DNA of 64,000 nt from Eimeria praecox (Eukaryota), in NCBI GenBank assembly GCA_963920595.1, contig OY986949.1, positions 620,001-684,000 of the forward strand, written 5' to 3'. Every line of letters starts with the position of its first letter. The first letter of the stretch is position 1. Under the pieces are notes generated by a model, which was given only the letters and a program-made list of their open reading frames with translations, was not told where the DNA came from and did no database searches. Below are positions 26,501 to 64,000 of this stretch, piece after piece. The translations under genes and the position numbers were made by a program.

Positions 26501-26958
26501 GCATTAGCGTCTGCGTCTGCAAAGCAGCGAGTGTCCTGCCATCGACAGCCCAGGCAATTGTCTTCGGAAACAACTTTCGTCACGCTATCTGCTTCTCTCA
26601 CCGCTTCTAACCGTCTGAATATTATAGTCTGCTGTGAGGTCTTTCATCCTCACCAAGGTAAGAAGGCAAGAATTCCCTCCACGGCTGCGAGCCTTTACCC
26701 AGCAAAGCGAATTCTTAGTGTCTTTGGTCAGAATCTTTGGCGCCTTCGGTCACTGGGTGCACTCCTACACGCCTTGATGAAACCCGCTATCCTCATAGTT
26801 CCTTTACGCCCATTGGATGTTTTGTACATCACTCAAGTAACAAAGTTTGGACCTTAGGACATGGTGTACGCGCCACAGGCCCACTCAATGTCCATCGTGT
26901 GCTCTGCCTTTGGCCTGTCATCTGCAGCCTGGACGGAAACTACTGAAACTACTGGAGA

Positions 26959-32151: not shown

Positions 32152-32250
32152 AATACGTAGGATACTTATCCTTGCGTTGCACCTTTCCAAGTGTTGTTGC
32201 TGCTAGACTAGTTCATGCACTACACAGTCAGCACGCACAATGTTGCATGG
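32152..32250. other. 99-bp segment present only in units 5 and 6 (second instance 40009-40107)
   Basis: Units 1-4 read catctgg|gtttggcaaag. Units 5-6 read catctgg-aatacgtagg...gttgcatgg-atttggcaaag, with TGG microhomology at both ends. Confidence 0.95.
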
Positions 32251-39176: not shown

Positions 39177-42100
39177 TTTCCTAGTCGTATCGACGCCACT
39201 GCAAATTTATGAATAGTGACAAGCAGAACGTTGCACGAGCGACGCAGAGCCCAGGAGCAGCAGCTGTTCCGTCAGTTGCTGCGTCAGGGATGAATTGCTT
39301 CAGCACTGGTTAGGTCGTGGATGCCAGCCGGCCAGCCTCAGCAAGCCCATACTCCCTTAATTATGCACTTACATGGACCACAATTGTTTTTCAAAGCGGA
39401 CGAGCCTTGCATCCTATTGGAGAGCATGCTGGTGTGCCCTCGTCGCCTCAGGCGGTACCTGGCCCACCTTCCTTCATTTACCATGAACAGCTTGCTGCCT
39501 GTTGCAGTCTAAGGTTGCCGACTCTGCATGGTGCATTCCACTGCGTGCCACTTATCAATGTTATGTTGAGTGCAACAAAGCCTTGATCTAGTATGGGAAG
39601 GGACTAGGGAAACATAAATCTATGTGGACTGCCCAATCAACAAAATCGGAATACATGCGTTGAACGTAGACGTATTGATGTGATATGAAACTCCGAAGTT
39701 GCCGTGCTTTGTCCTTGGCATAAACAGGACTCGAGCTTTGCAACGATAGGTAATAGATTACTTATATACTCGAGGGTGACAAACAGAACTGCATATGAGG
39801 TCATCACAGCAGCCAAAGGGTTACAGGAAGCGAACATTTAACTCAGCTGCATTGCACTTGGTTGCTGCAGCTATTGGGAGAGCCTGTCTTTCTACAGTTA
39901 AGTGTAACATTAATTCAACTCACCAGCCCCTGCATGGGTGCTCCTCTAGTCAAATGCTTGCCGTAAAGCGCAAAGGCTCTCCACGGAAACCCTGTAATAT
40001 TCATCTGGAATACGTAGGATACTTATCCTTGCGTTGCACCTTTCCAAGTGTTGTTGCTGCTAGACTAGTTCATGCACTACACAGTCAGCACGCACAATGT
40101 TGCATGGATTTGGCAAAGCGTTGCCAAGGGAATTGTGTATCGCTTGCGAAGTACTGCGCAACTAACCGGGTGTCCGGCAGCCTGGAAACTTCCCTTGTTT
40201 TGGAGGCCGCAGATGGGGGTAAGGTTGCACTAGCGTTGGTGTCTGAAGAACCTGTGTCGAGCAATCCAGTTCGTTGCTCTACGGAGATATAGCCACTGGC
40301 GAGAGAAAGTGACCTCGCCGTACAGACGATTTAAGGGGCACCTGATGAGGCAAGGCTGCTTCCCTGGGTTTTAATCAGGAGCGAGCGAGAGCTGGATCTA
40401 TGGCCAGACATACTTTGTATTTCCCCATAGATTCTGCCTGCCACTCGCCTCTAATAGCCTGCAAATAATGAGACGAAATCTTGGCCGACGGTATTTGTTT
40501 CCGTGAGAACGGAGAAGATCTGGACTACCCAGCCCAAAGCAATGGCATCACCTCCAATTTTGCGCTGCTGGAGGTGCCCACTGTTTCGCTATCACTGGAC
40601 CAGCCATCAACGCAGCAATGAAATGACGGCGTGTATATCTGAGCCCACGAGGCAAAGGGTGCAAGCATGACTGCCTACTCACTAAGGAAGGAAAGCGCAT
40701 GCTCAGTCACGTCACCACCGATAGCATGAGTGGTTAAGCCAGCGCAGGCAAAACCCAGCACAGACCGGCTCGCATCTTCTGTTACACACACGGCCTTCAG
40801 CACCTGTGACAGTACGCAAAGACCCCATTTCTGCTTCGCGTCCGCGCAGTAAACACAAATTATCAGCATTGTCATGTGATGTTTCTACCGCACTTTCGCT
40901 TGAAAGGACGATGCAGATTTAGGGAGTGAAACGGGCACTGAACCAATATTATGCTCTGAGCATGGGGCTACAGCGTCACGAAAATTCCGAGGCGCAGTGG
41001 AAAAGCCACGAGATTGTGCATATCCTACTCTGCATTAGAACAACGCGGAGGTGCGTAAATGCTTAAACACCCGCAACTCAAGATGGCCACTTGCCATTCA
41101 TGCTGTGAAGAGAAAGATACAAAAGGGAAGGCACGTGTAGTCCATGCAATAGTGCAATAGACGAGGTACCCAGCAGTGTTCTGTTTCGTTCTGCTTCTGA
41201 ACAGCGCAGAGTACACAGTGCTCCCTTACTCATGCATGTTTTAGATATATGGAGGGATTATCTAGCTTAGAGGTGGATGCCGGATGAGAGCGCGATGCCT
41301 TGTGCAGCTGCTAGAGTGAGTCATCTCATATTTTAGGGACACTACAGGAGGGGCAGAAGGAGAGCGGAAGCCTGCTGCAGTGTCACTGCCCCTTTCACGA
41401 CCCGAAACAAGACCCTTCGTTAAAGGTGAAACAATGGATTAATCCAGAATATATCGTGCAGTGTGGTGAGCTGCATGAAGGAGCTTTTCTTTCTAATATC
41501 TGCACCCTAATGCTTGATGATGTCCACTCCTGACTGGTTCGCGAGGAATAACCCAACGAAAAGGTGCGTCAGGAGGACACTACATGTACCACTTTTCGCC
41601 TCGAAATTTTCGGTTTGGCTCAATCGTAAAGCGGGCCCTTATGCTTACACTAGCTGGCTGTCTGAGGGGTAAGCTGCTGCTCCATGGTTGTGCACGAGTC
41701 CCCTGAGGGGCCCTAGTGACCCATATTCACGAGGTTTGTGTGCAAGCCATCTGCATCTTTAAGTTCTCATCAGAACATTGCCAGAATTGAAATTGGACTG
41801 CATTGAAAACCATCAAGGTGCTTCTGCTGTGGCTAGGGAAGAGCTGCAGGAAACGACGCATTGGGGCACGAAGCCCTTCCAATGTGACTTGCTACCAATC
41901 ACCTGGCCACAATAGATCAGGCCTTTTCCGTCCATTACAAGTGCAGTAAACATATCAAGTGTTAGGATTAATTGATCAAAATTCAAATATAATCAAGGAA
42001 GACCGCCTTCAGGATGCAACGAAGCTCCAACCGAACGCCCGAGGTCCCGGGCCTCGCTTGCCGACAGACCCTAGCCCACTGGACTGATGTCACGCTACCC

Positions 42101-42687
42101 GCCTCGCGGCTAGCTTGTGGCCTTGTCCACTTTAATCAGTTTCGCTCTCAATCACCTGCAAATATCCGAATTAACAAGCAAACAAAGTATTGCCTTTTTC
42201 AAAACCTTTTGTTTTTTCAATATTATTATCGCGTTAGCGTCTGTGTCTGCAAAGCAGCGAGTGTCCTGCCATCGACAGCCCAGGCAATTATCTTCGGAAA
42301 CAACTTTCGTCACGCTATCTGCTTCTCTCACCGCTTCTAACCGTCTGAATATTATAGTCTGCTGTGAGGTCTTTCATCCTCACCAAGGTAAGAAGGCAAG
42401 AATTCCCTCCACGGCTGCGAGCCTTTACCCAGCAAAGCGAATTCTTAGTGTCTTTGGTCAGAATCTTTGGCGCCTTCGGTCACTGGGTGCACTCCTACAC
42501 GCCTTGATGAAGCCGCTATCCTCATAGCTCCTTTACGCCCATTGGATGTTTTGTACATCACTCAAGTAGCAAAGTTTGGACCTTAGGACATGGTGTACGC
42601 GCCACAGGCCCACTCAATGTCCATCGTGTGCTCTGCCTTTGGCCTGTCATCCGCAGCCTGGACGGAAACTACTGAAACTACTGGAGA

Positions 42688-43476
42688 ATGATGCTCATAA
42701 GCTACCCGCTACATAGGGCATGTACCCTACTAGCTCTCCTTGGTGTCTTTGGGGGTTCTGAGGCAAATTACATGCCAAGCTCCTCATCAGGACTCTCCGT
42801 GCAGGAGCAGTTCACTAGAGAAGAGCCCGGACAGCTTCTAGACGGAAGTACGCCATGCTTGATTTATTGCTTACTCTGCTGAGTGCTTGAGCATCAGATA
42901 GTTTCAGTTCATATTGCATGAACATTCTTCAGGTGTTCATGGAATGGGCCGGGTCATTCTGTTCCTCGTTGTGTCTCCCGTTACCTCTCAGAAATTCCGC
43001 GTAACGACGGCGGTGGCTTTCGTAGTGGTGGTCAGAAGAGCAGTGATGGCGGCTTCGGGGAGGAGAAGGAAACTCCTCCGCATGAGTATCCCGAGATGGC
43101 AGCTATACCAATGATGGCTGAAGCCGTCTTGGAGGACTGCGAGGATGAGGAAGAAGAGAAAGAAGAAGAAACTTCAGGCAGCACAAGGAGTAGCGATGAA
43201 TCTTCGTCAAAAGAAGCTGACGAAGCTGCTTCGTTCAGAAAGGTACAGACATATAACACAACGGAGAGCGGTCCTCATCTGTTTGGTAGTAAAGGAATCC
43301 CCTGCTCTGGATGCACGGCCTCTAATGTTCAACCAGTCGCACAGCGGAAGACTTACCGGAGAACACCTGCTCATGCGCACCAGCTGCATGCACAATCGGG
43401 AAACCTGCATGGGCCAACCTTGAAGCCGAAGGAAAGATTTGTGGAGGATCTTCCCTTTTCCGACGCCCATTCTTAG
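42688..43476 (+). pseudogene. Copy 6: 5' fragment of the gene fused to the satellite
   Basis: Exon 1, intron 1 (donor gtacgc) and the start of exon 2 are retained. Identity to the unit stops at 43395. The frame continues SGNLHGPTLKPKERFVEDLPFSDAHS* into satellite sequence (stop at 43476). Confidence 0.85.
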
Positions 43477-43911
43477 GCACCACTTGACGGATCCCCAACT
43501 ATACGCATCCAGCAGCGACGAAGCCGCCCAGTCTACCCACCCACCTGCAATACTCGATCCCCAATCGACCCAAACGCGACTCAACGGCGCCGTTGCAGCA
43601 GGAAAGCATCTCCACAAATCTTTTACTCGGATTCAAGCTTCGGCTATTCACCGCAAGGTGCATGGGCCAACCTTGAAGCCGAAGGAAAGATTTGTGGAGA
43701 ATCTTCCCTTCTCCGACGCCCATTCTTAGGCACCACTTGACGGATCCCCAACTATACGCATCCAGCAGCGACGAAGCCGCCCAGTCTACCCACCCACCTG
43801 CAATACTCGATCCCCAACCGACCCAAACGCGACTCAACGGCGCCGTTGCAGAAGCCAAGCATCTCCACAAATCTTTTACTCGGCTTCAAGCTTCGGCTAT
43901 TCTCCTGGCCT
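43406..43911 (+). repeat. Two ~253-bp sub-repeats at the satellite start; the same 253/258-bp sub-repeat occurs about twice inside each 943-bp unit
   Basis: tgcatgggccaaccttgaagccgaaggaaagatttgtggag occurs at 43406 and 43659; ORF starts 43439 and 43692 are 253 apart. Confidence 0.93.
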
Positions 43912-44405
43912 CCGCCAGCCCGAAGCAGATGCATATTGCCGTGACCACTCTCCGCAAGCAACAGAAACGAGATGCAGGACCCACTCTCCACAACAAACTG
44001 ACACGCCTCAGGGATGCTTCCACGGGACACACACATCCGAAGACGTCTTCTTCTTCTGTCCATTGCTAAATGCTCCTCAGCAGCGCGAAAACGACCCTCT
44101 CGGTGCAAACCATACGCAGCAGTGGCGCGCATCCATCAAACATTCAACCAGGCCCCGCTATTCCAGTGCCACTACCAAAACCCACTCCGCAGCGAAGAAG
44201 CCTCCAAGCACTAGGTGAACTTCCTCAAACGAACCAGCAGCTACCCTGGCCCTTGTCAAAGGCGCGTCATGCGCTTTCAACAGATTGCTTCCGGAGAGTC
44301 ATCGCGGCAGTATGCATCTGCTTCGGGCTGGCGCACGCATGGTGAAGGGTCTAACCTTGAAGCCGAAGGAAAGATTTGTGGAGACGTTTTCCTTTTCCCG
44401 ACGCC
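43839..44405. repeat. ~120-bp imperfect inverted repeat (arms 43839-43961 and 44285-44405, spacer 323 bp), repeated along the satellite
   Basis: 43913-43961 matches the reverse complement of 44285-44333 at 44 of 49 nt. The + strand reads SPQIFYSASSFGYSPGLRQPEADAYCRDHSPQA and the - strand reads SPQIFPSASRLDPSPCVRQPEADAYCRDDSPEA. Confidence 0.93.
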
Positions 44406-44523
44406 CACGCTTAGGCAACGCTGGACGGATCCACAACTATACGCATGCAGCAGCGACGAGGAATCCCAGCCTACCCACCCACATGAAATACTCGATCCCC
44501 AACCGACCCCGACACACCTCAAA

Positions 44524-44658
44524 GGCGTCGTTGCAGAAGGGAAGCATCTCCACAAATCTTTTACTCGGCTTCAAGCTTCGGCTATTCACCGCAAGGTGCA
44601 TGGACCAACCTTGAAGCCGAAGGAAAGATTTGTGGAGAATCTTCCCTTCTCCGACGCC
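44524..44658. repeat. ~135-nt imperfect palindrome (fold-back hairpin) with cacc-GCAA-ggtg apex at 44591-44594; one per standard satellite unit
   Basis: The left arm ggcgtcg..agaagggaag..tctccacaaatcttt..tcggcttcaag pairs with the right arm cttgaagccga..aaagatttgtggaga..cttcccttct..cgacgcc. The register is ungapped out to agaagggaag/cttcccttct. Confidence 0.93.
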
Positions 44659-47600
44659 CATTCTGAGGCACCACTTGACGGATCGGATCCCCAACTATAC
44701 GCATCCAGCAGCGACGAAGCCGCCCAGTCTACCCACCCACATGAAATACTCGATCCCCAACCGACCCAAACGCGACTCAACGGCGTCGTCGCAGAAGCGA
44801 AGCATCTCCACAAATCTTTTACTCGGCTTCAAGCTTCGGCTATTCTCCTGGCCTCCGCCAGCCCGATGCAGATGCATATTGCCGTGACCACTCTCCGCAA
44901 GCAACAGAAACGAGATGCAGGACCCACTCTCCACAACAAACTGACACGCCTCAGGGATGCCTCCACGGGACACACACATCCGAAGACGTCTTCTTCTTCT
45001 GTCCATTGCTAAATGCTCCTCAGCAGCGCGAAAACGACCCTCTCGGTGCAAACCATACGCAGCAGTGGCGCGCATCCATCAAACATTCAACCAGGCCCCA
45101 CTATTCCAGTGCCACTACCAAAACCCACTCCGCAGCGAAGAAGCCTCCAAGCATTAGATGAACTTCCTCAAACGAACCAGCAGCTACCCTGGCCCTTGTC
45201 AAAGGCGCGTCATGCGCTTTCAACAGATTGCTTCCGGAGAGTCATCACGGCAGTATGCATCTGCTTCGGGCTGGCGCACGCATGGTGAAGGGTCTAACCT
45301 TGAAGCCGAAGGAAAGATTTGTGGAGACGTTTTCCTTTTCCCGACGCCCACGCTTAGGCAACGCTGGACGGATCCACAACTATACGCATGCAGCAGCGAC
45401 GAGGAATCCCAGCCTACCCACCCACATGAAATACTCGATCCCCAACCGACCCCGACACACCTCAACGGCGTCGTTGCAGAAGGGAAGCTTCTCCACAAAT
45501 CTTTTACTCGGCTTCAAGCTTCGGCTATTCACCGCAAGGTGCATGGACCAACCTTGAAGCCCAAGGAAAGATTTGTGGAGAATCTTCCCTTCTCCGACGC
45601 CCATTCTGAGGCACCACTTGACGGATCGGATCCCCAACTATACGCATCCAGCAGCGACGAAGCCGCCCAGTCTACCCACCCACATGAAATACTCGATCCC
45701 CAACCGACCCAAACGCGACTCAACGGCGTCGTCGCAGAAGCGAAGCATCTCCACAAATCTTTTACTCGGCTTCAAGCTTCGGCTATTCTCCTGGCCTCCG
45801 CCAGCCCGATGCAGATGCATATTGCCGTGACCACTCTCCGCAAGCAACAGAAACGAGATGCAGGACCCACTCTCCACAACAAACTGACACGCCTCAGGGA
45901 TGCCTCCACGGGACACACACATCCGAAGACGTCTTCTTCTTCTGTCCATTGCTAAATGCTCCTCAGCAGCGCGAAAACGACCCTCTCGGTGCAAACCATA
46001 CGCAGCAGTGGCGCGCATCCATCAAACATTCAACCAGGCCCCGCTATTCCAGTGCCACTACCAAAACCCACTCCGCAGCGAAGAAGCCTCCAAGCACTAG
46101 GTGAACTTCCTCAAACGAACCAGCAGCTACCCTGGCCCTTGTCAAAGCCGCGTCATGCGCTTTCAACAGATTGCTTCCGGAGAGTCATCGCGGCAGTATG
46201 CATCTGCTTCGGGCTGGCGCACGCATGGTGAAGGGTCTAACCTTGAAGCCGAAGGAAAGATTTGTGGAGACGTTTTCCTTTTCCCGACGCCCACGCTTAG
46301 GCAACGCTGGACGGATCCACAACTATACGCATGCAGCAGCGACGAGGAATCCCAGCCTACCCACCCACATGAAATACTCGATCCCCAACCGACCCCGACA
46401 CACCTCAAAGGCGTCGTTGCAGAAGGGAAGCATCTCCACAAATCTTTTACTCGGCTTCAAGCTTCGGCTATTCACCGCAAGGTGCATGGACCAACCTTGA
46501 AGCCGAAGGAAAGATTTGTGGAGAATCTTCCCTTCTCCGACGCCCATTCTGAGGCACCACTTGACGGATCGGATCCCCAACTATACGCATCCAGCAGCGA
46601 CGAAGCCGCCCAGTCTACCCACCCACCTGCAATACTCGATCCCCAACCGACCCAAACGCGACTCAACGGCGCCGTCGCAGCAGGGAAGCATCTCCACAAA
46701 TCTTTTACTCGGCTTCAAGCTTCGGCTATTCTCCTGGCCTCCGCCAGCCCGAAGCAGATGCATATTGCCGTGACCACTCTCCGCAAGCAACAGAAACGAG
46801 ATGCAGGACCCACTCTCCACAACAAACTGACACGCCTCAGGGATGCTTCCACGGGACACACACATCCGAAGACGTCTTCTTCTTCTGTCCATTGCTAAAT
46901 GCTCCTCAGCAGCGCGAAAACGACCCTCTCGGTGCAAACCATACGCAGCAGTGGCGCGCATCCATCAAACATTCAACCAGGCCCCGCTATTCCAGTGCCA
47001 CTACCAAAACGCACTCCGCAGCGAAGAAGCCTCCAAGCACTAGGTGAACTTCCTCAAACGAACCAGCAGCTACCCTGGCCCTTGTCAAAGGCGCGTCATG
47101 CGCTTTCAACAGATTGCTTCCGGAGAGTCATCGCGGCAGTATGCATCTGCTTCGGGCTGGCGCACGCATGGTGAAGGGTCTAACCTTGAAGCCGAAGGAA
47201 AGATTTGTGGAGACGTTTTCCTTTTCCCGACGCCCACGCTTAGGCAACGCTGGACGGATCCACAACTATACGCATGCAGCAGCGACGAGGAATCCCAGCC
47301 TACCCACCCACATGAAATACTCGATCCCCAACCGACCCCGACACACCTCAACGGCGTCGTTGCAGAAGGGAAGCATCTCCACAAATCTTTTACTCGGCTT
47401 CAAGCTTCGGCTATTCACCGCAAGGTGCATGGACCAACCTTGAAGCCCAAGGAAAGATTTGTGGAGAATCTTCCCTTCTCCGACGCCCATTCTGAGGCAC
47501 CACTTGACGGATCGGATCCCCAACTATACGCATCCAGCAGCGACGAAGCCGCCCAGTCTACCCACCCACATGAAATACTCGATCCCCAACCGACCCAAAC

Positions 47601-50600
47601 GCGACTCAACGGCGTCGTCGCAGAAGCGAAGCATCTCCACAAATCTTTTACTCGGCTTCAAGCTTCGGCTATTCTCCTGGCCTCCGCCAGCCCGATGCAG
47701 ATGCATATTGCCGTGACCACTCTCCGCAAGCAACAGAAACGAGATGCAGGACCCACTCTCCACAACAAACTGACACGCCTCAGGGATGCCTCCACGGGAC
47801 ACACACATCCGAAGACGTCTTCTTCTTCTGTCCATTGCTAAATGCTCCTCAGCAGCGCGAAAACGACCCTCTCGGTGCAAACCATACGCAGCAGTGGCGC
47901 GCATCCATCAAACATTCAACCAGGCCCCGCTATTCCAGTGCCACTACCAAAACCCACTCCGCAGCGAAGAAGCCTCCAAGCACTAGGTGAACTTCCTCAA
48001 ACGAACCAGCAGCTACCCTGGCCCTTGTCAAAGCCGCGTCATGCGCTTTCAACAGATTGCTTCCGGAGAGTCATCGCGGCAGTATGCATCTGCTTCGGGC
48101 TGGCGCACGCATGGTGAAGGGTCTAACCTTGAAGCCGAAGGAAAGATTTGTGGAGACGTTTTCCTTTTCCCGACGCCCACGCTTAGGCAACGCTGGACGG
48201 ATCCACAACTATACGCATGCAGCAGCGACGAGGAATCCCAGCCTACCCACCCACATGAAATACTCGATCCCCAACCGACCCCGACACACCTCAAAGGCGT
48301 CGTTGCAGAAGGGAAGCATCTCCACAAATCTTTTACTCGGCTTCAAGCTTCGGCTATTCACCGCAAGGTGCATGGACCAACCTTGAAGCCGAAGGAAAGA
48401 TTTGTGGAGAATCTTCCCTTCTCCGACGCCCATTCTGAGGCACCACTTGACGGATCGGATCCCCAACTATACGCATCCAGCAGCGACGAAGCCGCCCAGT
48501 CTACCCACCCACCTGCAATACTCGATCCCCAACCGACCCAAACGCGACTCAACGGCGCCGTCGCAGCAGGTAAGCATCTCCACAAATCTTTTACTCGGCT
48601 TCAAGCTTCGGCTATTCTCCTGGCCTCCGCCAGCCCGAAGCAGATGCATATTGCCGTGACCACTCTCCGCAAGCAACAGAAACGAGATGCAGGACCCACT
48701 CTCCACAACAAACTGACACGCCTCAGGGATGCTTCCACGGGACACACACATCCGAAGACGTCTTCTTCTTCTGTCCATTGCTAAATGCTCCTCAGCAGCG
48801 CGAAAACGACCCTCTCGGTGCAAACCATACGCAGCAGTGGCGCGCATCCATCAAACATTCAACCAGGCCCCGCTATTCCAGTGCCACTACCAAAACCCAC
48901 TCCGCAGCGAAGAAGCCTCCAAGCACTAGGTGAACTTCCTCAAACGAACCAGCAGCTACCCTGGCCCTTGTCAAAGCCGCGTCATGCGCTTTCAACAGAT
49001 TGCTTCCGGAGAGTCATCGCGGCAGTATGCATCTGCTTCGGGCTGGCGCACGCATGGTGAAGGGTCTAACCTTGAAGCCGAAGGAAAGATTTGTGGAGAC
49101 GTTTTCCTTTTCCCGACGCCCACGCTTAGGCAACGCTGGACGGATCCACAACTATACGCATGCAGCAGCGACGAGGAATCCCAGCCTACCCACCCACATG
49201 AAATACTCGATCCCCAACCGACCCCGACACACCTCAACGGCGTCGTTGCAGAAGGGAAGCATCTCCACAAATCTTTTACTCGGCTTCAAGCTTCGGCTAT
49301 TCACCGCAAGGTGCATGGGCCAACCTTGAAGCCGAAGGAAAGATTTGTGGAGAATCTTCCCTTCTCCGACGCCCATTCTGAGGCACCACTTGACGGATCG
49401 GATCCCCAGCTATACGCATCCAGCAGCGACGAAGCCGCCCAGTCTACCCACCCACCTGCAATACTCGATCCCCAACCGACCCAAACGCGACTCAACGGCG
49501 TCGTCGCAGAAGCCAAGCATCTCCACAAATCTTTTACTCGGCTTCAAGCTTCGGCTATTCTCCTGGCCTGCGCCAGCCCGAAGCAGATGCATATTGCCGT
49601 GACCACTCTCCGCAAGCAACAGAAACGAGATGCAGGACCCACTCTCCACAACAAACTGACACGCCTCAGGGATGCTTCCACGGGACACACACATCCGAAG
49701 ACGTCTTCTTCTTCTGTCCATTGCTAAATGCTCCTCAGCAGCGCGAAAACGACCCTCTCGGTGCAAACCATACGCAGCAGTGGCGCGCATCCATCAAACA
49801 TTCAACCAGGCCCCGCTATTCCAGTGCCACTACCAAAACCCACTCCGCAGCGAAGAAGCCTCCAAGCACTAGGTGAACTTCCTCAAACGAACCAGCAGCT
49901 ACCCTGGCCCTTGTCAAAGGCGCGTCATGCGCTTTCAACAGATTGCTTCCGGAGAGTCATCACGGCAGTATGCATCTGCTTCGGGCTGGCGCACGCAAGG
50001 TGAAGGGTCTAACCTTGAAGCCGAAGGAAAGATTTGTGGAGACGTTTTCCTTTTCCCGACGCCCACGCTTAGGCAACGCTGGACGGATCCACAACTATAC
50101 GCATGCAGCAGCGACGAGGAATCCCAGCCTACCCACCCACATGAAATACTCGATCCCCAACCGACCCCGACACACCTCAAAGGCGTCGTTGCAGAAGGGA
50201 AGCATCTCCACAAATCTTTTACTCGGCTTCAAGCTTCGGCTATTCACCGCAAGGTGCATGGACCAACCTTGAAGCCGAAGGAAAGATTTGTGGAGAATCT
50301 TCCCTTCTCCGACGCCCATTCTGAGGCACCACTTGACGGATCGGATCCCCAACTATACGCATCCAGCAGCGACGAAGCCGCCCAGTCTACCCACCCACCT
50401 GCAATACTCGATCCCCAACCGACCCAAACGCGACTCAACGGCGCCGTCGCAGCAGGGAAGCATCTCCACAAATCTTTTACTCGGATTCAAGCTTCGGCTA
50501 TTCTCCTGGCCTCCGCCAGCCCGAAGCAGATGCATATTGCCGTGACCACTCTCCGCAAGCAACAGAAACGAGATGCAGGACCCACTCTCCACAACAAACT

Positions 50601-52701: not shown

Positions 52702-53897
52702 GTGAACTTCCTCAAACGAACCAGCAGCTACCCTGGCCCTTGTCAAAGGCGCGTCATGCGCTTTCAACAGATTGCTTCCGGAGAGTCATCACGGCAGTAT
52801 GCATCTGCTTCGGGCTGGCGCACGCATGGTGAAGGGTCTAACCTTGAAGCCGAAGGAAAGATTTGTGGAGACGTTTTCCTTTTCCCGACGCCCACTCTTA
52901 GGCAACGCTAGACGGATCCACAACTATACGCATGCAGCAGCGACGAGGAATCCCAGCCTACCCACCCACATGAAATACTCGATCCCCAACCGACCCCGAC
53001 ACACCTCAACGGCGTCGTTGCAGAAGGGAAGCTTCTCCACAAATCTTTTACTCGGCTTCAAGCTTCGGCTATTCACCGCAAGGTGCATGGACCAACCTTG
53101 AAGCCCAAGGAAAGATTTGTGGAGAATCTTCCCTTCTCCGACGCCCATTCTGAGGCAACACTTGACGGATCGGATCCCCAACTATACGCATCCAGCAGCG
53201 ACGAAGCCGCCCAGTCTACCCACCCACCTGCAATACTCGATTCCCAACCGACCCCGACACACCTCAACGGCGTCGTTGCAGAAGGGAAGCATCTCCACAA
53301 ATCTTTTACTCGGCTTCAAGCTTCGGCTATTCACCGCAAGGTGCATGGACCAACCTTGAAGCCCAAGGAAAGATTTGTGGAGAATCTTCCCTTCTCCGAC
53401 GCCCATTCTGAGGCAACACTTGACGGATCATCAACTACACGGATGCAGCAGCGACGAAGCCGCCCAGTCTACCCACCCACCTGCAATACTCGGTCCCCAA
53501 CCGACCCAAACGCGACTCAACGGCGTCGTCGCAGAAGCCAAGCATCTCCACAAATCTTTTACTCGGCTTCAAGCTTCGGCTATTCTCCTGGCCTCCGCCA
53601 GCCCGAAGCAGATGCATATTGCCGTGACCACTCTCCGCAAGCAACAGAAACGAGATGCAGGACCCACTCTCCACAACAAACTGACACGCCTCAGGGATGC
53701 TTCCACGGGACACACACATCCGAAGACGTCTTCTTCTTCTGTCCATTGCTAAATGCTCCTCAGCAGCGCGAAAACGACCCTCTCGGTGCAAACCATACGC
53801 AGCAGTGGCGCGCATCCATCAAACATTCAACCAGGCCCCGCTATTCCAGTGCCACTACCAAAACGCACTCCGCAGCGAAGAAGCCTCCAAGCACTAG
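52702..53897 (+). repeat. 1196-bp long satellite variant (extra 253-bp sub-repeat, two hairpins); second instance 58575-59770
   Basis: Marker spacing is 1196 = 943+253. GCAA apices lie at 53078 and 53336. Confidence 0.95.
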
Positions 53898-54513
53898 GTG
53901 AACTTCCTCAAACGAACCAGCAGCTACCCTGGCCCTTGTCAAAGGCGCGTCATGCGCTTTCAACAGATTGCTTCCGGAGAGTCATCACGGCAGTATGCAT
54001 CTGCTTCGGGCTGGCGCACGCAAGGTGAAGGGTCTAACCTTGAAGCCGAAGGAAAGATTTGTGGAGACGTTTTCCTTTTTCCGACGCCCACGCTTAGGCA
54101 ACGCTGGACGGATCCACAACTATACGCATGCAGCAGCGGAGCCGTCGCAGAAGCGAAGCATCTCCACAAATCTTTTACTCGGCTTCAAGCTTCGGCTATT
54201 CTCCTGGCCTGCGCCAGCCCGAAGCAGATGCATATTGCCGTGACCACTCTCCGCAAGGAACAGAAACGAGATGCAGGACCCACTCTCCACAACAAACTGA
54301 CACGCCTCAGGGATGCCTCCACGGGACACACACATCCGAAGACGTCTTCTTCTTCTGTCCATTGCTAAATGCTCCTCAGCAGCGCGAAAACGACCCTCTC
54401 GGTGCAAACCATACGCAGCAGTGGCGCGCATCCATCAAACATTCAACCAGGCCCCGCTATTCCAGTGCCACTACCAAAACCCACTCCGCAGCGAAGAAGC
54501 CTCCAAGCACTAG
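53898..54513 (+). repeat. 616-bp short satellite variant (327-bp deletion removing the GCAA hairpin); also 56400-57015 and 57016-57631
   Basis: Marker spacing is 616. The same novel junction gcatgcagcagcggagccgtcgcagaag is seen near 54138, 56640 and 57256. Confidence 0.95.
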
Positions 54514-57500
54514 GTGAACTTCCTCAAACGAACCAGCAGCTACCCTGGCCCTTGTCAAAGCCGCGTCATGCGCTTTCAACAGATTGCTTCCGGAGAGTCA
54601 TCGCGGCAGTATGCATCTGCTTCGGGCTGGCGCACGCATGGTGAAGGGTCTAACCTTGAAGCCGAAGGAAAGATTTGTGGAGACGTTTTCCTTTTCCCGA
54701 CGCCCACGCTTAGGCAACGCTGGACGGATCCACAACTATACGCATGCAGCAGCGACGAGGAATCCCAGCCTACCCACCCACATGAAATACTCGATCCCCA
54801 ACCGACCCCGACACACCTCAACGGCGTCGTTGCAGAAGGGAAGCATCTCCACAAATCTTTTACTCGGCTTCAAGCTTCGGCTATTCACCGCAAGGTGCAT
54901 GGGCCAACCTTGAAGCCGAAGGAAAGATTTGTGGAGAATCTTCCCTTCTCCGACGCCCATTCTGAGGCACCACTTGACGGATCGGATCCCCAGCTATACG
55001 CATCCAGCAGCGACGAAGCCGCCCAGTCTACCCACCCACCTGCAATACTCGATCCCCAACCGACCCAAACGCGACTCAACGGCGTCGTCGCAGAAGCCAA
55101 GCATCTCCACAAATCTTTTACTCGGCTTCAAGCTTCGGCTATTCTCCTGGCCTGCGCCAGCCCGAAGCAGATGCATATTGCCGTGACCACTCTCCGCAAG
55201 CAACAGAAACGAGATGCAGGACCCACTCTCCACAACAAACTGACACGCCTCAGGGATGCCTCCACGGGACACACACATCCGACGACGTCTTCTTCTTCTG
55301 TCCATTGCTAAATGCTCCTCAGCAGCGCGAAAACGACCCTCTCGGTGCAAACCATACGCAGCAGTGGCGCGCATCCATCAAACATTCAACCAGGCCCCGC
55401 TATTCCAGTGCCACTACCAAAACGCACTCCGCAGCGAAGAAGCCTCCAAGCACTAGGTGAACTTCCTCAAACGAACCAGCAGCTACCCTGGCCCTTGTCA
55501 AAGGCGCGTCATGCGCTTTCAACAGATTGCTTCCGGAGAGTCATCACGGCAGTATGCATCTGCTTCGGGCTGGCGCACGCATGGTGAAGGGTCTAACCTT
55601 GAAGCCGAAGGAAAGATTTGTGGAGACGTTTTCCTTTTCCCGACGCCCACGCTTAGGCAACGCTGGACGGATCCACAACTATACGCATGCAGCAGCGACG
55701 AGGAATCCCAGCCTACCCACCCACATGAAATACTCGATCCCCAACCGACCCCGACACACCTCAACGGCGTCGTTGCAGAAGGGAAGCATCTCCACAAATC
55801 TTTTACTCGGCTTCAAGCTTCGGCTATTCACCGCAAGGTGCATGGACCAACCTTGAAGCCGAAGGAAAGATTTGTGGAGAATCTTCCCTTCTCCGACGCC
55901 CATTCTGAGGCACCACTTGACGGATCGGATCCCCAGCTATACGCATCCAGCAGCGACGAAGCCGCCCAGTCTACCCACCCACCTGCAATACTCGATCCCC
56001 AACCGACCCAAACGCGACTCAACGGCGTCGTCGCAGAAGCCAAGCATCTCCGCAAATCTTTTACTCGGCTTCAAGCTTCGGCTATTCTCCTGGCCTCCGC
56101 CAGCCCGAAGCAGATGCATATTGCCGTGACCACTCTCCGCAAGCAACAGAAACGAGATGCAGGACCCACTCTCCACAACAAACTGACACGCCTCAGGGAT
56201 GCCTCCACGGGACACACACATCCGAAGACGTCTTCTTCTTCTGTCCATTGCTAAATGCTCCTCAGCAGCGCGAAAACGACCCTCTCGGTGCAAACCATAC
56301 GCAGCAGTGGCGCGCATCCATCAAACATTCAACCAGGCCCCGCTATTCCAGTGCCACTACCAAAACCCACTCCGCAGCGAAGAAGCCTCCAAGCACTAGG
56401 TGAACTTCCTCAAACGAACCAGCAGCTACCCTGGCCCTTGTCAAAGGCGCGTCATGCGCTTTCAACAGATTGCTTCCGGAGAGTCATCACGGCAGTATGC
56501 ATCTGCTTCGGGCTGGCGCACGCAAGGTGAAGGGTCTAACCTTGAAGCCGAAGGAAAGATTTGTGGAGACGTTTTCCTTTTCCCGACGCCCACGCTTAGG
56601 CAACGCTGGACGGATCCACAACTATACGCATGCAGCAGCGGAGCCGTCGCAGAAGCGAAGCATCTCCACAAATCTTTTACTCGGCTTCAAGCTTCGGCTA
56701 TTCTCCTGGCCTGCGCCAGCCCGAAGCAGATGCATATTGCCGTGACCACTCTCCGCAAGCAACAGAAACGAGATGCAGGACCCACTCTCCACAACAAACT
56801 GACACGCCTCAGGGATGCTTCCACGGGACACACACATCCGAAGACGTCTTCTTCTTCTGTCCATTGCTAAATGCTCCTCAGCAGCGCGAAAACGACCCTC
56901 TCGGTGCAAACCATACGCAGCAGTGGCGCGCATCCATCAAACATTCAACCAGGCCCCGCTATTCCAGTGCCACTACCAAAACCCACTCCGCAGCGAAGAA
57001 GCCTCCAAGCACTAGGTGAACTTCCTCAAACGAACCAGCAGCTACCCTGGCCCTTGTCAAAGGCGCGTCATGCGCTTTCAACAGATTGCTTCCGGAGAGT
57101 CATCACGGCAGTATGCATCTGCTTCGGGCTGGCGCACGCAAGGTGAAGGGTCTAACCTTGAAGCCGAAGGAAAGATTTGTGGAGACGTTTTCCTTTTCCC
57201 GACGCCCACGCTTAGGCAACGCTGGACGGATCCACAACTATACGCATGCAGCAGCGGAGCCGTCGCAGAAGCGAAGCATCTCCACAAATCTTTTACTCGG
57301 CTTCAAGCTTCGGCTATTCTCCTGGCCTGCGCCAGCCCGAAGCAGATGCATATTGCCGTGACCACTCTCCGCAAGCAACAGAAACGAGATGCAGGACCCA
57401 CTCTCCACAACAAACTGACACGCCTCAGGGATGCTTCCACGGGACACACACATCCGAAGACGTCTTCTTCTTCTGTCCATTGCTAAATGCTCCTCAGCAG

Positions 57501-60500
57501 CGCGAAAACGACCCTCTCGGTGCAAACCATACGCAGCAGTGGCGCGCATCCATCAAACATTCAACCAGGCCCCGCTATTCCAGTGCCACTACCAAAACCC
57601 ACTCCGCAGCGAAGAAGCCTCCAAGCACTAGGTGAACTTCCTCAAACGAACCAGCAGCTACCCTGGCCCTTGTCAAAGGCGCGTCATGCGCTTTCAACAG
57701 ATTGCTTCCGGAGAGTCATCACGGCAGTATGCATCTGCTTCGGGCTGGCGCACGCATGGTGAAGGGTCTAACCTTGAAGCCGAAGGAAAGATTTGTGGAG
57801 ACGTTTTCCTTTTCCCGACGCCCACGCTTAGGCAACGCTGGACGGATCCACAACTATACGCATGCAGCAGCGACGAGGAATCCCAGCCTACCCACCCACA
57901 TGAAATACTCGATCCCCAACCGACCCCGACACACCTCAACGGCGTCGTTGCAGAAGGGAAGCATCTCCACAAATCTTTTACTCGGCTTCAAGCTTCGGCT
58001 ATTCACCGCAAGGTGCATGGACCAACCTTGAAGCCCAAGGAAAGATTTGTGGAGAATCTTCCCTTCTCCGACGCCCATTCTGAGGCACCACTTGACGGAT
58101 CGGATCCCCAGCTATACGCATCCAGCAGCGACGAAGCCGCCCAGTCTACCCACCCACCTGCAATACTCGATCCCCAACCGACCCAAACGCGACTCAACGG
58201 CGTCGTCGCAGAAGCGAAGCATCTCCACAAATCTTTTACTCGGCTTCAAGCTTCGGCTATTCTCCTGGCCTCCGCCAGCCCGAAGCAGATGCATATTGCC
58301 GTGACCAGTCTCCGCAAGCAACAGAAACGAGATGCAGGACCCACTCTCCACAACAAACTGACACGCCTCAGGGATGCCTCCACGGGACACACACATCCGA
58401 AGACGTCTTCTTCTTCTGTCCATTGCTAAATGCTCCTCAGCAGCGCGAAAACGACCCTCTCGGTGCAAACCATACGCAGCAGTGGCGCGCATCCATCAAA
58501 CATTCAACCAGGCCCCGCTATTCCAGTGCCACTACCAAAACCCACTCCGCAGCGAAGAAATCTCCAAGCACTAGGTGAACTTCCTCAAACGAACCAGCAG
58601 CTACCCTGGCCCTTGTCAAAGCCGCGTCATGCGCTTTCAACAGATTGCTTCCGGAGAGTCATCGCGGCAGTATGCATCTGCTTCGGGCTGGCGCACGCAT
58701 GGTGAAGGGTCTAACCTTGAAGCCGAAGGAAAGATTTGTGGAGACGTTTTCCTTTTCCCGACGCCCACTCTTAGGCAACGCTGGACGGATCCACAACTAT
58801 ACGCATGCAGCAGCGACGAGGAATCCCAGCCTACCCACCCACATGAAATACTCGATCCCCAACCGACCCCGACACACCTCAACGGCGTCGTTGCAGAAGG
58901 GAAGCTTCTCCACAAATCTTTTACTCGGCTTCAAGCTTCGGCTATTCACCGCAAGGTGCATGGACCAACCTTGAAGCCGAAGGAAAGATTTGTGGAGAAT
59001 CTTCCCTTCTCCGACGCCCATTCTGAGGCACCACTTGACGGATCGGATCCCCAACTATACGCATCCAGCAGCGACGAAGCCGCCCAGTCTAACCACCCAC
59101 CTGCAATACTCGATTCCCAACCGAGCCCGACACACCTCAACGGCGTCGTTGCAGAAGGGAAGCTTCTCCACAAATCTTTTACTCGGCTTCAAGCTTCGGC
59201 TATTCACCGCAAGGTGCATGGACCAACCTTGAAGCCCAAGGAAAGATTTGTGGAGAATCTTCCCTTCTCCGACGCCCATTCTGAGGCACCACTTGACGGA
59301 TCATCAACTACACGGATGCAGCAGCGACGAAGCCGCCCAGTCTACCCACCCACCTGCAATACTCGGTCCCCAACCGACCCAAACGCGACTCAACGGCGTC
59401 GTCGCAGAAGCGAAGCATCTCCACAAATCTTTTACTCGGCTTCAAGCTTCGGCTATTCTCCTGGCCTCCGCCAGCCCGAAGCAGATGCATATTGCCGTGA
59501 CCACTCTCCGCAAGCAACAGAAACGAGATGCAGGACCCACTCTCCACAACAAACTGACACGCTTCAGGGATGCCTCCACGGGACACACACATCCGAAGAC
59601 GTCTTCTTCTTCTGTCCATTGCTAAATGCTCCTCAGCAGCGCGAAAACGACCCTCTCGGTGCAAACCATACGCAGCAGTGGCGCGCATCCATCAAACATT
59701 CAACCAGGCCCCGCTATTCCAGTGCCACTACCAAAACCCACTCCGCAGCGAAGAAGCCTCCAAGCACTAGGTGAACTTCCTCAAACGAACCAGCAGCTAC
59801 CCTGGCCCTTGTCAAAGGCGCGTCATGCGCTTTCAACAGATTGCTTCCGGAGAGTCATCACGGCAGTATGCATCTGCTTCGGGCTGGCGCACGCATGGTG
59901 AAGGGTCTAACCTTGAAGCCGAAGGAAAGATTTGTGGAGACGTTTTCCTTTTCCCGACGCCCACGCTTAGGCAACGCTGGACGGATCCACAACTATACGC
60001 ATGCAGCAGCGACGAGGAATCCCAGCCTACCCACCCACATGAAATACTCGATCCCCAACCGACCCCGACACACCTCAACGGCGTCGTTGCAGAAGGGAAG
60101 CTTCTCCACAAATCTTTTACTCGGCTTCAAGCTTCGGCTATTCACCGCAAGGTGCATGGACCAACCTTGAAGCCGAAGGAAAGATTTGTGGAGAATCTTC
60201 CCTTCTCCGACGCCCATTCTGAGGCACCACTTGACGGATCGGATCCCCAGCTATACGCATCCAGCAGCGACGAAGCCGCCCAGTCTACCCACCCACCTGC
60301 AATACTCGATCCCCAACCGACCCAAACGCGACTCAACGGCGTCGTCGCAGAAGCGAAGCATCTCCACAAATCTTTTACTCGGCTTCAAGCTTCGGCTATT
60401 CTCCTGGCCTCCGCCAGCCCGAAGCAGATGCATATTGCCGTGACCACTCTCCGCAAGCAACAGAAACGAGATGCAGGACCCACTCTCCACAACAAACTGA

Positions 60501-63500
60501 CACGCCTCAGGGATGCCTCCACGGGACACACACATCCGAAGACGTCTTCTTCTTCTGTCCATTGCTAAATGCTCCTCAGCAGCGCGAAAACGACCCTCTC
60601 GGTGCAAACCATACGCAGCAGTGGCGCGCATCCATCAAACATTCAACCAGGCCCCGCTATTCCAGTGCCACTACCAAAACGCACTCCGCAGCGAAGAAAT
60701 CTCCAAGCACTAGGTGAACTTCCTCAAACGAACCAGCAGCTACCCTGGCCCTTGTCAAAGGCGCGTCATGCGCTTTCAACAGATTGCTTCCGGAGAGTCA
60801 TCACGGCAGTATGCATCTGCTTCGGGCTGGCGCACGCATGGTGAAGGGTCTAACCTTGAAGCCGAAGGAAAGATTTGTGGAGACGTTTTCCTTTTCCCGA
60901 CGCCCACGCTTAGGCAACGCTGGACGGATCCACAACTATACGCATGCAGCAGCGACGAGGAATCCCAGCCTACCCACCCACATGAAATACTCGATCCCCA
61001 ACCGACCCCGACACACCTCAACGGCGTCGTTGCAGAAGGGAAGCTTCTCCACAAATCTTTTACTCGGCTTCAAGCTTCGGCTATTCACCGCAAGGTGCAT
61101 GGACCAACCTTGAAGCCGAAGGAAAGATTTGTGGAGAATCTTCCCTTCTCCGACGCCCATTCTGAGGCACCACTTGACGGATCGGATCCCCAGCTATACG
61201 CATCCAGCAGCGACGAAGCCGCCCAGTCTACCCACCCACCTGCAATACTCGATCCCCAACCGACCCAAACGCGACTCAACGGCGCCGTCGCAGAAGCGAA
61301 GCATCTCCACAAATCTTTTACTCGGCTTCAAGCTTCGGCTATTCTCCTGGCCTCCGCCAGCCCGATGCAGATACATATTGCCGTGACCACTCTCCGCAAG
61401 CAACAGAAACGAGATGCAGGACCCACTCTCCACAACAAACTGACACGCCTCAGGGATGCCTCCACGGGACACACACATCCGAAGACGTCTTCTTCTTCTG
61501 TCCATTGCTAAATGCTCCTCAGCAGCGCGAAAACGACCCTCTCGGTGCAAACCATACGCAGCAGTGGCGCGCATCCATCAAACATTCAACCAGGCCCCGC
61601 TATTCCAGTGCCACTACCAAAACCCACTCCGCAGCGAAGAAGCCTCCAAGCACTAGGTGAACTTCCTCAAACGAACCAGCAGCTACCCTGGCCCTTGTCA
61701 AAGGCGCGTCATGCGCTTTCAACAGATTGCTTCCGGAGAGTCATCGCGGCAGTATGCATCTGCTTCGGGCTGGCGCACGCATGGTGAAGGGTCTAACCTT
61801 GAAGCCGAAGGAAAGATTTGTGGAGACGTTTTCCTTTTCCCGACGCCCACGCTTAGGCAACGCTGGACGGATCCACAACTATACGCATGCAGCAGCGACG
61901 AGGAATCCCAGCCTACCCACCCACATGAAATACTCGATCCCCAACCGACCCCGACACACCTCAACGGCGTCGTTGCAGAAGGGAAGCATCTCCACAAATC
62001 TTTTACTCGGCTTCAAGCTTCGGCTATTCACCGCAAGGTGCATGGGCCAACCTTGAAGCCCAAGGAAAGATTTGTGGAGAATCTTCCCTTCTCCGACGCC
62101 CATTCTGAGGCACCACTTGACGGATCGGATCCCCAACTATACGCATCCAGCAGCGACGAAGCCGCCCAGTCTACCCACCCACCTGCAATACTCGATCCCC
62201 AACCGACCCAAACGCGACTCAACGGCGCCGTCGCAGAAGCGAAGCATCTCCACAAATCTTTTACTCGGCTTCAAGCTTCGGCTATTCTCCTGGCCTCCGC
62301 CAGCCCGATGCAGATGCATATTGCCGTGACCACTCTCCGCAAGCAACAGAAACGAGATGCAGGACCCACTCTCCACAACAAACTGACACGCCTCAGGGAT
62401 GCCTCCACGGGACACACACATCCGAAGACGTCTTCTTCTTCTGTCCATTGCTAAATGCTCCTCAGCAGCGCGAAAACGACCCTCTCGGTGCAAACCATAC
62501 GCAGCAGTGGCGCGCATCCATCAAACATTCAACCAGGCCCCGCTATTCCAGTGCCACTACCAAAACGCACTCCGCAGCGAAGAAGCCTCCAAGCACTAGG
62601 TGAACTTCCTCAAACGAACCAGCAGCTACCCTGGCCCTTGTCAAAGGCGCGTCATGCGCTTTCAACAGATTGCTTCCGGAGAGTCATCGCGGCAGTATGC
62701 ATCTGCTTCGGGCTGGCGCACGCATGGTGAAGGGTCTAACCTTGAAGCCGAAGGAAAGATTTGTGGAGACGTTTTCCTTTTCCCGACGCCCACGCTTAGG
62801 CAACGCTGGACGGATCCACAACTATACGCATGCAGCAGCGACGAGGAATCCGAGCCTACCCACCCACATGAAATACTCGATTCCCAACCGACCCCGACAC
62901 ACCTCAACGGCGTCGTTGCAGAAGGGAAGCATCTCCACAAATCTTTTACTCGGCTTCAAGCTTCGGCTATTCACCGCAAGGTGCATGGGCCAACCTTGAA
63001 GCCCAAGGAAAGATTTGTGGAGAATCTTCCCTTCTCCGACGCCCATTCTGAGGCACCACTTGACGGATCGGATCCCCAGCTATACGCATCCAGCAGCGAC
63101 GAAGCCGCCCAGTCTACCCACCCACCTGCAATACTCGATCCCCAACCGACCCAAACGCGACTCAACGGCGCCGTCGCAGAAGCGAAGCATCTCCACAAAT
63201 CTTTTACTCGGCTTCAAGCTTCGGCTATTCTCCTGGCCTCCGCCAGCCCGATGCAGATACATATTGCCGTGACCACTCTCCGCAAGCAACAGAAACGAGA
63301 TGCAGGACCCACTCTCCACAACAAACTGACACGCCTCAGGGATGCCTCCACGGGACACACACATCCGAAGACGTCTTCTTCTTCTGTCCATTGCTAAATG
63401 CTCCTCAGCAGCGCGAAAACGACCCTCTCGGTGCAAACCATACGCAGCAGTGGCGCGCATCCATCAAACATTCAACCAGGCCCCGCTATTCCAGTGCCAC

Positions 63501-64000
63501 TACCAAAACGCACTCCGCAGCGAAGAAGCCTCCAAGCACTAGGTGAACTTCCTCAAACGAACCAGCAGCTACCCTGGCCCTTGTCAAAGGCGCGTCATGC
63601 GCTTTCAACAGATTGCTTCCGGAGAGTCATCGCGGCAGTATGCATCTGCTTCGGGCTGGCGCACGCATGGTGAAGGGTCTAACCTTGAAGCCGAAGGAAA
63701 GATTTGTGGAGACGTTTTCCTTTTCCCGACGCCCACGCTTAGGCAACGCTGGACGGATCCACAACTATACGCATGCAGCAGCGACGAGGAATCCCAGCCT
63801 ACCCACCCACATGAAATACTCGATTCCCAACCGACCCCGACACACCTCAACGGCGTCGTTGCAGAAGGGAAGCATCTCCACAAATCTTTTACTCGGCTTC
63901 AAGCTTCGGCTATTCACCGCAAGGTGCATGGACCAACCTTGAAGCCCAAGGAAAGATTTGTGGAGAATCTTCCCTTCTCCGACGCCCATTCTGAGGCACC

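What the first reader, a model, noticed from the sequence alone, without database searches (positions are those of the whole stretch)
42000..64000. Candidate hairpin-RNA locus: a truncated gene copy points into an array of fold-back copies of its own family's repeat
Seen: copy 6 retains the whole upstream intergenic region, exon 1 and intron 1, lacks its normal 3' end, and runs straight into the satellite. Each standard satellite unit has the gene-related module in alternating orientation (R 44285-44405, F 44524-44590, R 44595-44658, F 44782-44904). Inference: read-through transcription would give a long RNA with repeated dsRNA stems, including sequence antisense-like to the gene repeat. Established knowledge: long inverted-repeat transcripts feed Dicer/Argonaute pathways, and paralogue-derived hairpin RNAs silence amplified genes in Drosophila. 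Caveat: exact matches to the adjacent gene are short (for example tctccacaaatc and acgcctcagggatgcct), so any target may be a closer paralogue elsewhere, or the satellite itself.
Basis: inference. Interest (0 to 1): 0.75.

Follow-up and report, generated by a model that had tools for sequence, protein, structure and literature searches.

The report
Gene-derived fold-back satellite in Eimeria
In the chicken gut parasite Eimeria praecox, a tandem gene array ends in a broken copy joined to a 943-base repeat built from an old relative of the same gene and predicted to fold into long hairpins; the repeat likely arose from DNA rearrangements, and a gene-silencing RNA role is possible but untested.

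Summary
Anatomy confirmed; hairpin-RNA function not shown. The window is Eimeria praecox. Five 7.8-kb copies of an uncharacterised gene are followed by copy 6, cut in exon 2 at 43395 and joined through 10 filler bases to a 943-bp satellite of at least 20.6 kb. The junction is present in raw-data contigs. The unit is a decayed exon-2 paralogue (62% over 444 bp) with inverted arms 75-79% alike, folding at z about -16 on either strand; 14 of 21 units have a perfect helix of 23-25 bp. Against a selected hairpin RNA: stems are no more stable than randomly decayed arms, are as polymorphic as non-arm DNA and show no compensatory pair; only one site is antisense to the gene (22 of 25 nt); copy 6's predicted exon 1 is frameshifted; a published search found Argonaute but no Dicer in the E. 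praecox draft. The gene junction and the internal duplication ends sit at the fold-back apex, as DNA hairpin-driven rearrangement predicts. No RNA data were available. Best reading: a gene-derived fold-back satellite (0.6); gene-targeting hairpin RNA about 0.12.

The parts
1057..40104 (+). Five full tandem copies (7,773-7,872 bp; arbitrary phase) of an uncharacterised Eimeria gene; 1-1056 is the end of a further copy
   Evidence: Self-BLAST; copy alignment; P0001 = CDI79888.1, E. praecox hypothetical protein, 100% over 29% of the query
34157..34529 (+). Predicted coding exon 1 of copy 5 (124 codons from ATG, open in copies 1-5, in frame with exon 2 if spliced to the AG before 35135)
   Evidence: prediction only, no RNA
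35135..37102 (+). Predicted exon 2 of copy 5, carrying the RxPxxTGTPQGxL-type peptide repeats
   Evidence: ORF 35065-37386; 3' splice agrees with the P0001 model; alignment with P0002-P0009
35935..36392 (+). Exon-2 stretch homologous to the satellite unit (absent from copy 6)
   Evidence: score 250.5 vs best shuffle 72.5 of 100; tblastn 37% aa, E 2e-12 against two units; 62% over 444 aligned bases
36026..36050 (+). Only exon-2 site with near-complete antisense match to the + strand of the satellite (22 of 25 nt)
40105..43395 (+). Copy 6: truncated, most diverged copy; 1-bp insertion at 42207 frameshifts the predicted exon 1 (42014-42387); exon-2 remnant from 42933/42992
43396..43405 (.). 10-base filler at the junction; its first 8 bases also occur 46 bp past the break in intact copies (35584) and on the - strand of R1
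   Evidence: junction contigs in X1 and X2 with 0 differences
43406..44284 (+). Edge unit of the satellite; starts at unit position 313, 2 bases past the hairpin loop; the exon-2 frame reads in and stops at 43476
44285..44405 (-). Arm R1 (inverted copy of F2)
44406..44523 (+). Spacer S1 (80% like S2)
44524..44590 (+). Arm F1 (95.5% like the start of F2)
44591..44594 (+). 4-base loop of the inner hairpin; inherited from R1 positions 53-56 by the internal duplication
44595..44658 (-). Arm R2; holds the best antisense match to exon 2 (44616-44640)
44659..44781 (+). Spacer S2; its 3' part is exon-2-derived
44782..44904 (+). Arm F2, exon-2-derived, sense
44905..45227 (+). Tail; exon-2-derived to about 45179, with stops and frameshifts; holds the 18-nt exact sense match to the gene
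44285..64000 (+). Satellite array: 16 standard units, 1196-bp units at 52772 and 58645 (extra R-S-F module), 616-bp units at 53968, 56470 and 57086 (inner hairpin deleted, outer one kept); runs off the window

Best explanation
The array is a satellite built from a decayed exon-2 relative of the neighbouring gene, and it likely arose and was joined to copy 6 by DNA fold-back rearrangements, with the predicted RNA hairpins a likely by-product. Shown: the unit is exon-2-derived, holds inverted arms, repeats head to tail at about 98-99% identity, and abuts a truncated copy. Inferred order: (1) an older paralogue decayed and acquired an inverted ~121-bp arm (R1 against F2); (2) a ~254-bp duplication with its ends almost opposite each other in that stem created R-S-F-R-S-F and a tight 4-base-loop palindrome; (3) the 943-bp unit was amplified and homogenised by unequal exchange; (4) a break at the palindrome tip was end-joined, with a short probably templated filler, to a break in copy 6, leaving a pseudogene at the array edge.
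For: Exon-2 origin. Duplication ends at unit positions 52 and 564, where 52 pairs with 569 and 57 with 564; gene junction at position 313, loop at 307-310. By my rough estimate each placement has a 1-2% chance, post hoc. Stem energies equal those of arms with the same number of randomly placed changes: P 0.33-0.88 in 8 of 8 strand/stem tests, 300 simulations each. Polymorphic sites: 22 of 375 in arms, 30 of 564 outside. No two-sided compensatory change among 22 minor alleles. A pair-breaking allele is the majority at 571 (15 of 21 units) although gene and R1 both carry the pairing base. G-U versus A-C on + is 10:4, P 0.09. R1 is not closer to the gene than F2 (6 vs 12 sites). Copy 6 is the most diverged copy and is frameshifted. 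Cruciform-forming imperfect inverted repeats are linked to breaks and deletions (PMC12887540, passages). No Dicer-like hit in E. praecox (PMC9353057).
Against: Mismatches between arms are mildly clustered (P 0.02-0.055). 14 of 21 units keep a 23-25-bp perfect helix inside 32-34 unbroken pairs. The R arms, not the F arms, hold the best 25-nt window against the gene (R2 22/25, P 0.035; R1 21/25, P 0.046; F 19/25, P 0.30 and 0.81; uncorrected), and it lies in the blocks shared by all four arms. All 21 measured units, deletion variants included, keep the outer hairpin. Copy 6 has no private change in its exon-2 remnant. A DNA origin does not exclude later use as RNA. The selection tests have low power.
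Confidence: 0.6

Rival explanations
1. Cis-acting repeat silencing. The satellite is transcribed, by read-through or from its own start, folds back without needing an RdRP, and yields small RNAs that guide Argonaute to the satellite itself, so heterochromatin forms and may spread into the gene array, like Toxoplasma satRNA/rdsRNA. Compatible with the DNA origin above.
For: Dicer-length helices in 14 of 21 units; any small RNA would match the array near-perfectly; E. praecox has an Argonaute, EPH_0024580 (PMC9353057 supplement); Toxoplasma satellites yield small RNAs and lie in heterochromatin (PMC2877743, passages).
Against: No Ribonuclease_3 hit listed for E. praecox (part 1 of the file; section text); both strands fold equally, so there is no sign of a preferred transcript; no selection signal on stems.
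Confidence: 0.18
2. Paralogue-targeting hairpin-RNA locus. Copy 6's promoter drives a long RNA through the array; stems are cut into siRNAs, and the R-arm species silence the amplified gene family or a closer paralogue in trans.
For: Promoter-side DNA and splice motifs of copy 6 are retained and point into the array; the architecture resembles the tandem hp-CG4068 and hp-tHMG clusters (PMC10317233, passages); one 21-mer pairs at nt 2-14 with 3 mismatches in all, and two 21-mers have only 2 mismatches; R-arm bias in the best window.
Against: No perfect 21-mer; 24 of 943 plus-strand 21-mers have <=4 mismatches to the gene unit, 22 of them at one site; the best helix is 5-7 mismatches from the gene; an 18-nt exact sense match outside the stems shows such windows arise without hairpins; no selection signal; Dicer not found in the draft.
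Confidence: 0.12
3. Structural chromosomal satellite (centromeric or similar) whose DNA hairpins matter, with the gene junction incidental.
For: At least 20.6 kb homogeneous array; inner hairpin stable as DNA, -48 and -51 kcal/mol.
Against: Depth ratios suggest only some tens of units (rough); nothing links the array to a centromere; the whole genome was not available.
Confidence: 0.08
4. Assembly artefact: the junction or the inversions are mis-joins.
For: Both sides are near-identical repeats; X1 and X2 are one sample and may be the source of the assembly.
Against: Exact 69-70-bp junction contigs at depth 1700 (X1) and 529.5 (X2); a run of another study (X3) has 639-bp and 271-bp contigs with 3 and 4 differences across the arms and the loop.
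Confidence: 0.02

Closest known systems
Drosophila hairpin RNAs (hp-CG4068 tandem cluster, hp-tHMG cluster, hp58, Nmy/Tmy; PMC10317233, passages read)
   Same: Inverted fragment of a gene's exon, in tandem copies, next to full-length and truncated paralogues; imperfect long stems
   Different: Those are defined by Dcr-2-dependent 21-22-nt siRNAs and primary transcripts, often fully complementary to targets. Here none of that is shown, the arms are only about 60% like the neighbour, and no Dicer has been found in the host draft
Toxoplasma gondii satRNA/rdsRNA from Sat350, Sat529a and REP/SDR elements (PMC2877743, passages read)
   Same: Coccidian satellite or inverted-repeat DNA as a source of Argonaute-bound small RNA
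   Different: Toxoplasma has a full Dicer; its satellites are high-copy (>800) and not described there as gene-derived fold-backs; no small-RNA data exist here
Complex satellite DNA under concerted evolution, with quasi-palindrome-driven rearrangement (PMC12887540, passages read; concerted evolution recalled)
   Same: Head-to-tail homogeneous units, divergent edge units, unequal-exchange length variants, breakpoints at the fold-back
   Different: Long (943-bp) unit traceable to a coding exon of the adjacent family, with nested hairpins
MITE-like fold-back elements (definition recalled)
   Same: The 620-bp R1...F2 block has ~121-bp terminal inverted arms
   Different: Arms are exon-derived, copies are tandem, and no dispersal or target-site duplication was shown

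Membership tests
Drosophila-type hpRNA locus | Long inverted repeat able to form an extended duplex | tested here: met
Drosophila-type hpRNA locus | Arms homologous to a protein-coding gene or paralogue | tested here: met
   (57-66% identity of arms to exon 2)
Drosophila-type hpRNA locus | Predicted siRNAs highly or fully complementary to a target | tested here: inconclusive
   Neighbour gene: no perfect 21-mer, best 2 mismatches, one site. Closer paralogues elsewhere in the genome could not be searched
Drosophila-type hpRNA locus | Primary transcript through the inverted repeat | not testable with these tools
   Only contig runs not on record as RNA were offered
Drosophila-type hpRNA locus | Dicer-dependent 21-22-nt siRNAs and target de-repression on Dicer loss | not testable with these tools
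   No small-RNA data; definition from PMC10317233
Drosophila-type hpRNA locus | Host Dicer and Argonaute | not testable with these tools
   No genome held. Literature: Argonaute present, Dicer-like not found in the draft (PMC9353057)
Conserved structured RNA | Compensatory or pair-preserving change in stems | tested here: not met
   low power, one species
Known Rfam RNA family | Match at gathering score | tested here: not met
   32000-47200: only mir-208 at 24.6 bits against a gathering score of 56.4 (E 0.075)
Satellite DNA (complex, tandem) | Many head-to-tail units of high mutual identity | tested here: met
   standard units 98.3-99.4% identical to the first
Satellite DNA (complex, tandem) | No continuous coding frame through the array | tested here: met
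   943 is not a multiple of 3; longest stop-to-stop frame 265 codons in 43400-47000; no Pfam match
Toxoplasma-type satRNA/heterochromatin locus | Small RNAs tiling the satellite and silent histone marks | not testable with these tools
   No RNA or ChIP data
MITE | Dispersed insertions with target-site duplications | not testable with these tools
   No genome held; all copies in the window are tandem

The most novel reading that the evidence does not exclude
An apicomplexan hairpin-RNA cluster: a pseudogenised edge copy lends its promoter to a satellite of exon-derived hairpins, and the tight inner hairpin releases an R2 small RNA (22 of 25 nt antisense) that dampens an amplified Eimeria gene family through the divergent Eimeria Argonaute, possibly with no canonical Dicer.
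Probability: 0.12. Interest if true: 0.75.

Novelty: new variant of a known kind. Interest (0 to 1): 0.36.

Why it matters
It shows the steps by which a satellite can be born from a coding exon: decay, inversion, duplication across the stem, amplification, and a break at the hairpin tip. It also gives a specific test substrate for an open question: what the Argonaute of Eimeria species with no identified Dicer is loaded with. If stem-derived small RNAs exist, it would be a hairpin-RNA silencing locus in a coccidian parasite; I found none described in the searches.

Tried and rejected
No whole genome is held, so Dicer, RdRP, closer paralogues and other arrays were not searched. Sequencing runs: no RNA holder listed; this says nothing about expression. 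Pfam: 0 of 7 ORFs matched at E<=1. Homolog searches: none among 7,032 longer candidates for exon 2; none among 125 candidates for the satellite's exon-like frame, which missed even P0001-P0003-level relatives, so it is weak evidence on closer paralogues. Metagenome scans for a shared DNA motif and with alignment A1 found nothing. The profile search of representatives and the protein atlas gave no answer, so distant relatives of the protein stay untested. The mir-208 Rfam hit is a chance hairpin match. The GCAA loop is not evidence of RNA design: it is copied from R1. No hammerhead-core motif on + and one partial hit on - (motif recalled). Codon-position bias between unit and gene: none over 444 bases (P 0.47); a weak third-position excess in the arm region (13 of 27 R1/F2 differences), not significant. 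A coding satellite was rejected (stops and frameshifts). Earlier scan notes: none on this genome; two unrelated prokaryotic notes.

Full report
Source. Exon 2 of the tandem gene matches P0001 (CDI79888.1, Eimeria praecox hypothetical protein) at 100% over 29% of the query. It also matches an unnamed cluster (P0002, 39%) and a second E. praecox protein (P0003, 27%); these are the 3 hits among 7,992 scored candidates. No Pfam family matched 7 of 7 ORFs tested. The protein is an uncharacterised family with internal RxPxxTGTPQGxL-type repeats.

Gene array. Bases 1-43395 are a 7,773-bp tandem repeat. Copies 1-5 keep open exon-2 and exon-3 frames; among them exon 2 has 5 synonymous and 5 non-synonymous variable codons of 621, and exon 3 has 4 and 5 of 416. 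A 124-codon frame from ATG 34157 to the GT donor after 34529 is open in 5 of 5 full copies and joins exon 2 in frame if spliced to the AG before 35135. Copy 6 (40105-43395) has 23 private variants in the shared stretch, against 8 for copy 5 and 0-1 for copies 1-4. One is an insertion at 42207 that shifts this frame into two stops. None of the private variants lies in its exon-2 remnant. From the exon-2 ATG at 43096 the frame runs 100 codons, crosses the junction and stops at 43476.

Junction. The gene ends at 43395, ten filler bases follow, and the satellite begins at 43406. Exact junction contigs exist in X1 (70 bp, depth 1700) and X2 (69 bp, depth 529.5), against gene contigs at 14000 and 7000. 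If the junction is single, that is roughly 8-13 gene copies; contig depth is a poor copy measure. X1 and X2 are one sample and may be the assembly's source. They cover introns and intergenic DNA evenly, so I read them as DNA. X3, from another study, holds satellite pieces only, including 639 bp with 3 differences and 271 bp with 4 differences across the hairpin tip.

Satellite. The array has 16 standard 943-bp units, two of 1196 bp, three of 616 bp, an edge unit and a cut unit. The unit reads R1 (1-121), S1, F1 (240-306), loop (307-310), R2 (311-374), S2, F2 (498-620), tail. The stretch 44716-45179 aligns colinearly to exon 2 at 35935-36392 (score 250.5; best of 100 shuffles 72.5), with 62% identity over 444 bases in the third unit. 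So the unit comes from an older paralogue, not from the 99%-identical copies, and its fusion to copy 6 is secondary. Arms are 75-79% alike in inverted orientation; the direct duplicates are 85% (R), 80% (S) and 95.5% (F) alike.

Fold. The 620-base block folds into nested hairpins at z -16.0 (+) and -17.7 (-) against 15 shuffles. A long enough Dicer substrate would therefore exist if the array is transcribed.

Tests of selection on the RNA fold. (a) Energies equal those of arms given the same numbers of transitions and transversions at random places: P 0.33-0.88 in 8 of 8 tests. (b) G-U versus A-C on the + strand is 10:4 over the two non-redundant stems, P 0.09; 22 further mismatches are transversions. 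(c) Polymorphic sites are 22 of 375 in arms and 30 of 564 outside. That script left out the extra module of the two 1196-bp units and laid their F1-like copy and the deletion fillers on S2/F2. Removing those 10 sites by hand gives 19 of 375 and 23 of 564, the same result. (d) No two-sided compensatory change among 22 minor alleles; at position 571 the pair-breaking base is in 15 of 21 units although gene and R1 carry the pairing one. On the other side, mismatches are mildly clustered (P 0.016-0.055), which selection or arm-to-arm DNA conversion could both give. These tests have little power.

Target. Of 943 plus-strand 21-mers, 24 have at most 4 mismatches to the 7.9-kb copy-4 unit. 22 of them hit one exon-2 site; the best two have 2 mismatches and none is perfect. 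Against exon 2 alone, 30 shuffled units averaged 0.3 such 21-mers. The longest exact antisense match is 14 nt, while the 18-nt exact match is sense and outside the stems. The best helix (R1 19-52) is 5-7 mismatches per 21-mer from the gene. R1 matches the gene at 6 and F2 at 12 of their differing sites; R2 at 6 and F1 at 2. The best 25-nt window is 22 for R2 (P 0.035) and 21 for R1 (P 0.046) but 19 for both F arms, uncorrected and post hoc. This is the main hint for the RNA reading.

Breakpoints. The internal duplication joins F at 564 to R at 52; in the outer stem 52 faces 569 and 57 faces 564, so the ends are 5 bases from opposite. The GCAA loop is R1's own positions 53-56. The gene junction falls at position 313, two bases past the loop. 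Eight filler bases recur 46 bp beyond the break in intact copies and on the - strand of R1. These placements are what slippage across a DNA hairpin and cleavage at a hairpin tip followed by end-joining would give (inference; review passages in PMC12887540). The inner hairpin is also stable as DNA.

Host machinery. PMC9353057 (passages, section 14, part 1 of supplement 1) reports one Argonaute in each chicken Eimeria, including E. praecox EPH_0024580, and a Dicer-like protein only in E. tenella. The authors allow for incomplete genomes, and the E. praecox genome of PMC4199364 was a draft (passages). I could not repeat this search. PMC10317233 (passages) defines hairpin RNAs by Dcr-2-dependent siRNAs and shows tandem clusters beside truncated paralogues. 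PMC2877743 (passages) describes satellite small RNAs in Toxoplasma.

Novelty. Searches (listings) and passages of PMC11387943, PMC9131526, PMC4199364 and bioRxiv 10.64898/2026.09.17.752431 showed no description of this repeat. Subscription papers and most supplements were not seen.

Verdict. The best-supported account is a gene-derived fold-back satellite made by DNA rearrangement, beside a pseudogenised edge copy (0.6). Self-silencing small RNAs (0.18) and gene-targeting hairpin RNA (0.12) remain open and directly testable.

Noticed in passing
window 32152-32247 and 40009-40104: A 96-99-bp segment is present only before copies 5 and 6; X1 and X2 contigs that skip it are at high depth, so most gene copies lack it.
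   Followed up: partly
window 38680 and 39147: Copy 5 alone has a 2-bp and a 13-bp deletion near its 3' end, so the two copies nearest the satellite are the most diverged.
   Followed up: partly
window 42933-43395: Copy 6's exon-2 remnant has no private variant while its upstream 2.8 kb has 23; conversion from intact copies or constraint on a short product.
   Followed up: no
window 44285-64000: Satellite polymorphisms are rich in C/G and A/T swaps, whereas the gene array has 67 transitions to 35 transversions; may reflect hairpin or single-strand mutagenesis.
   Followed up: no
window 53968, 56470, 57086: The 616-bp deletion units lose the inner hairpin, carry a 4-base filler and have the most Watson-Crick pairs in the outer stem (92-93 of 114).
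   Followed up: partly
run X2 contig laid at 32101-32191: A contig at depth 394 joins 36197 to 32101 and 32191 to 39149, suggesting another rearranged gene copy outside the window; a loose end at 36148 points to a further paralogue.
   Followed up: no
window 35088-35140: Just before the second splice acceptor a different frame reads as a short hydrophobic, signal-peptide-like stretch; P0003 begins with such a stretch (read by eye).
   Followed up: no
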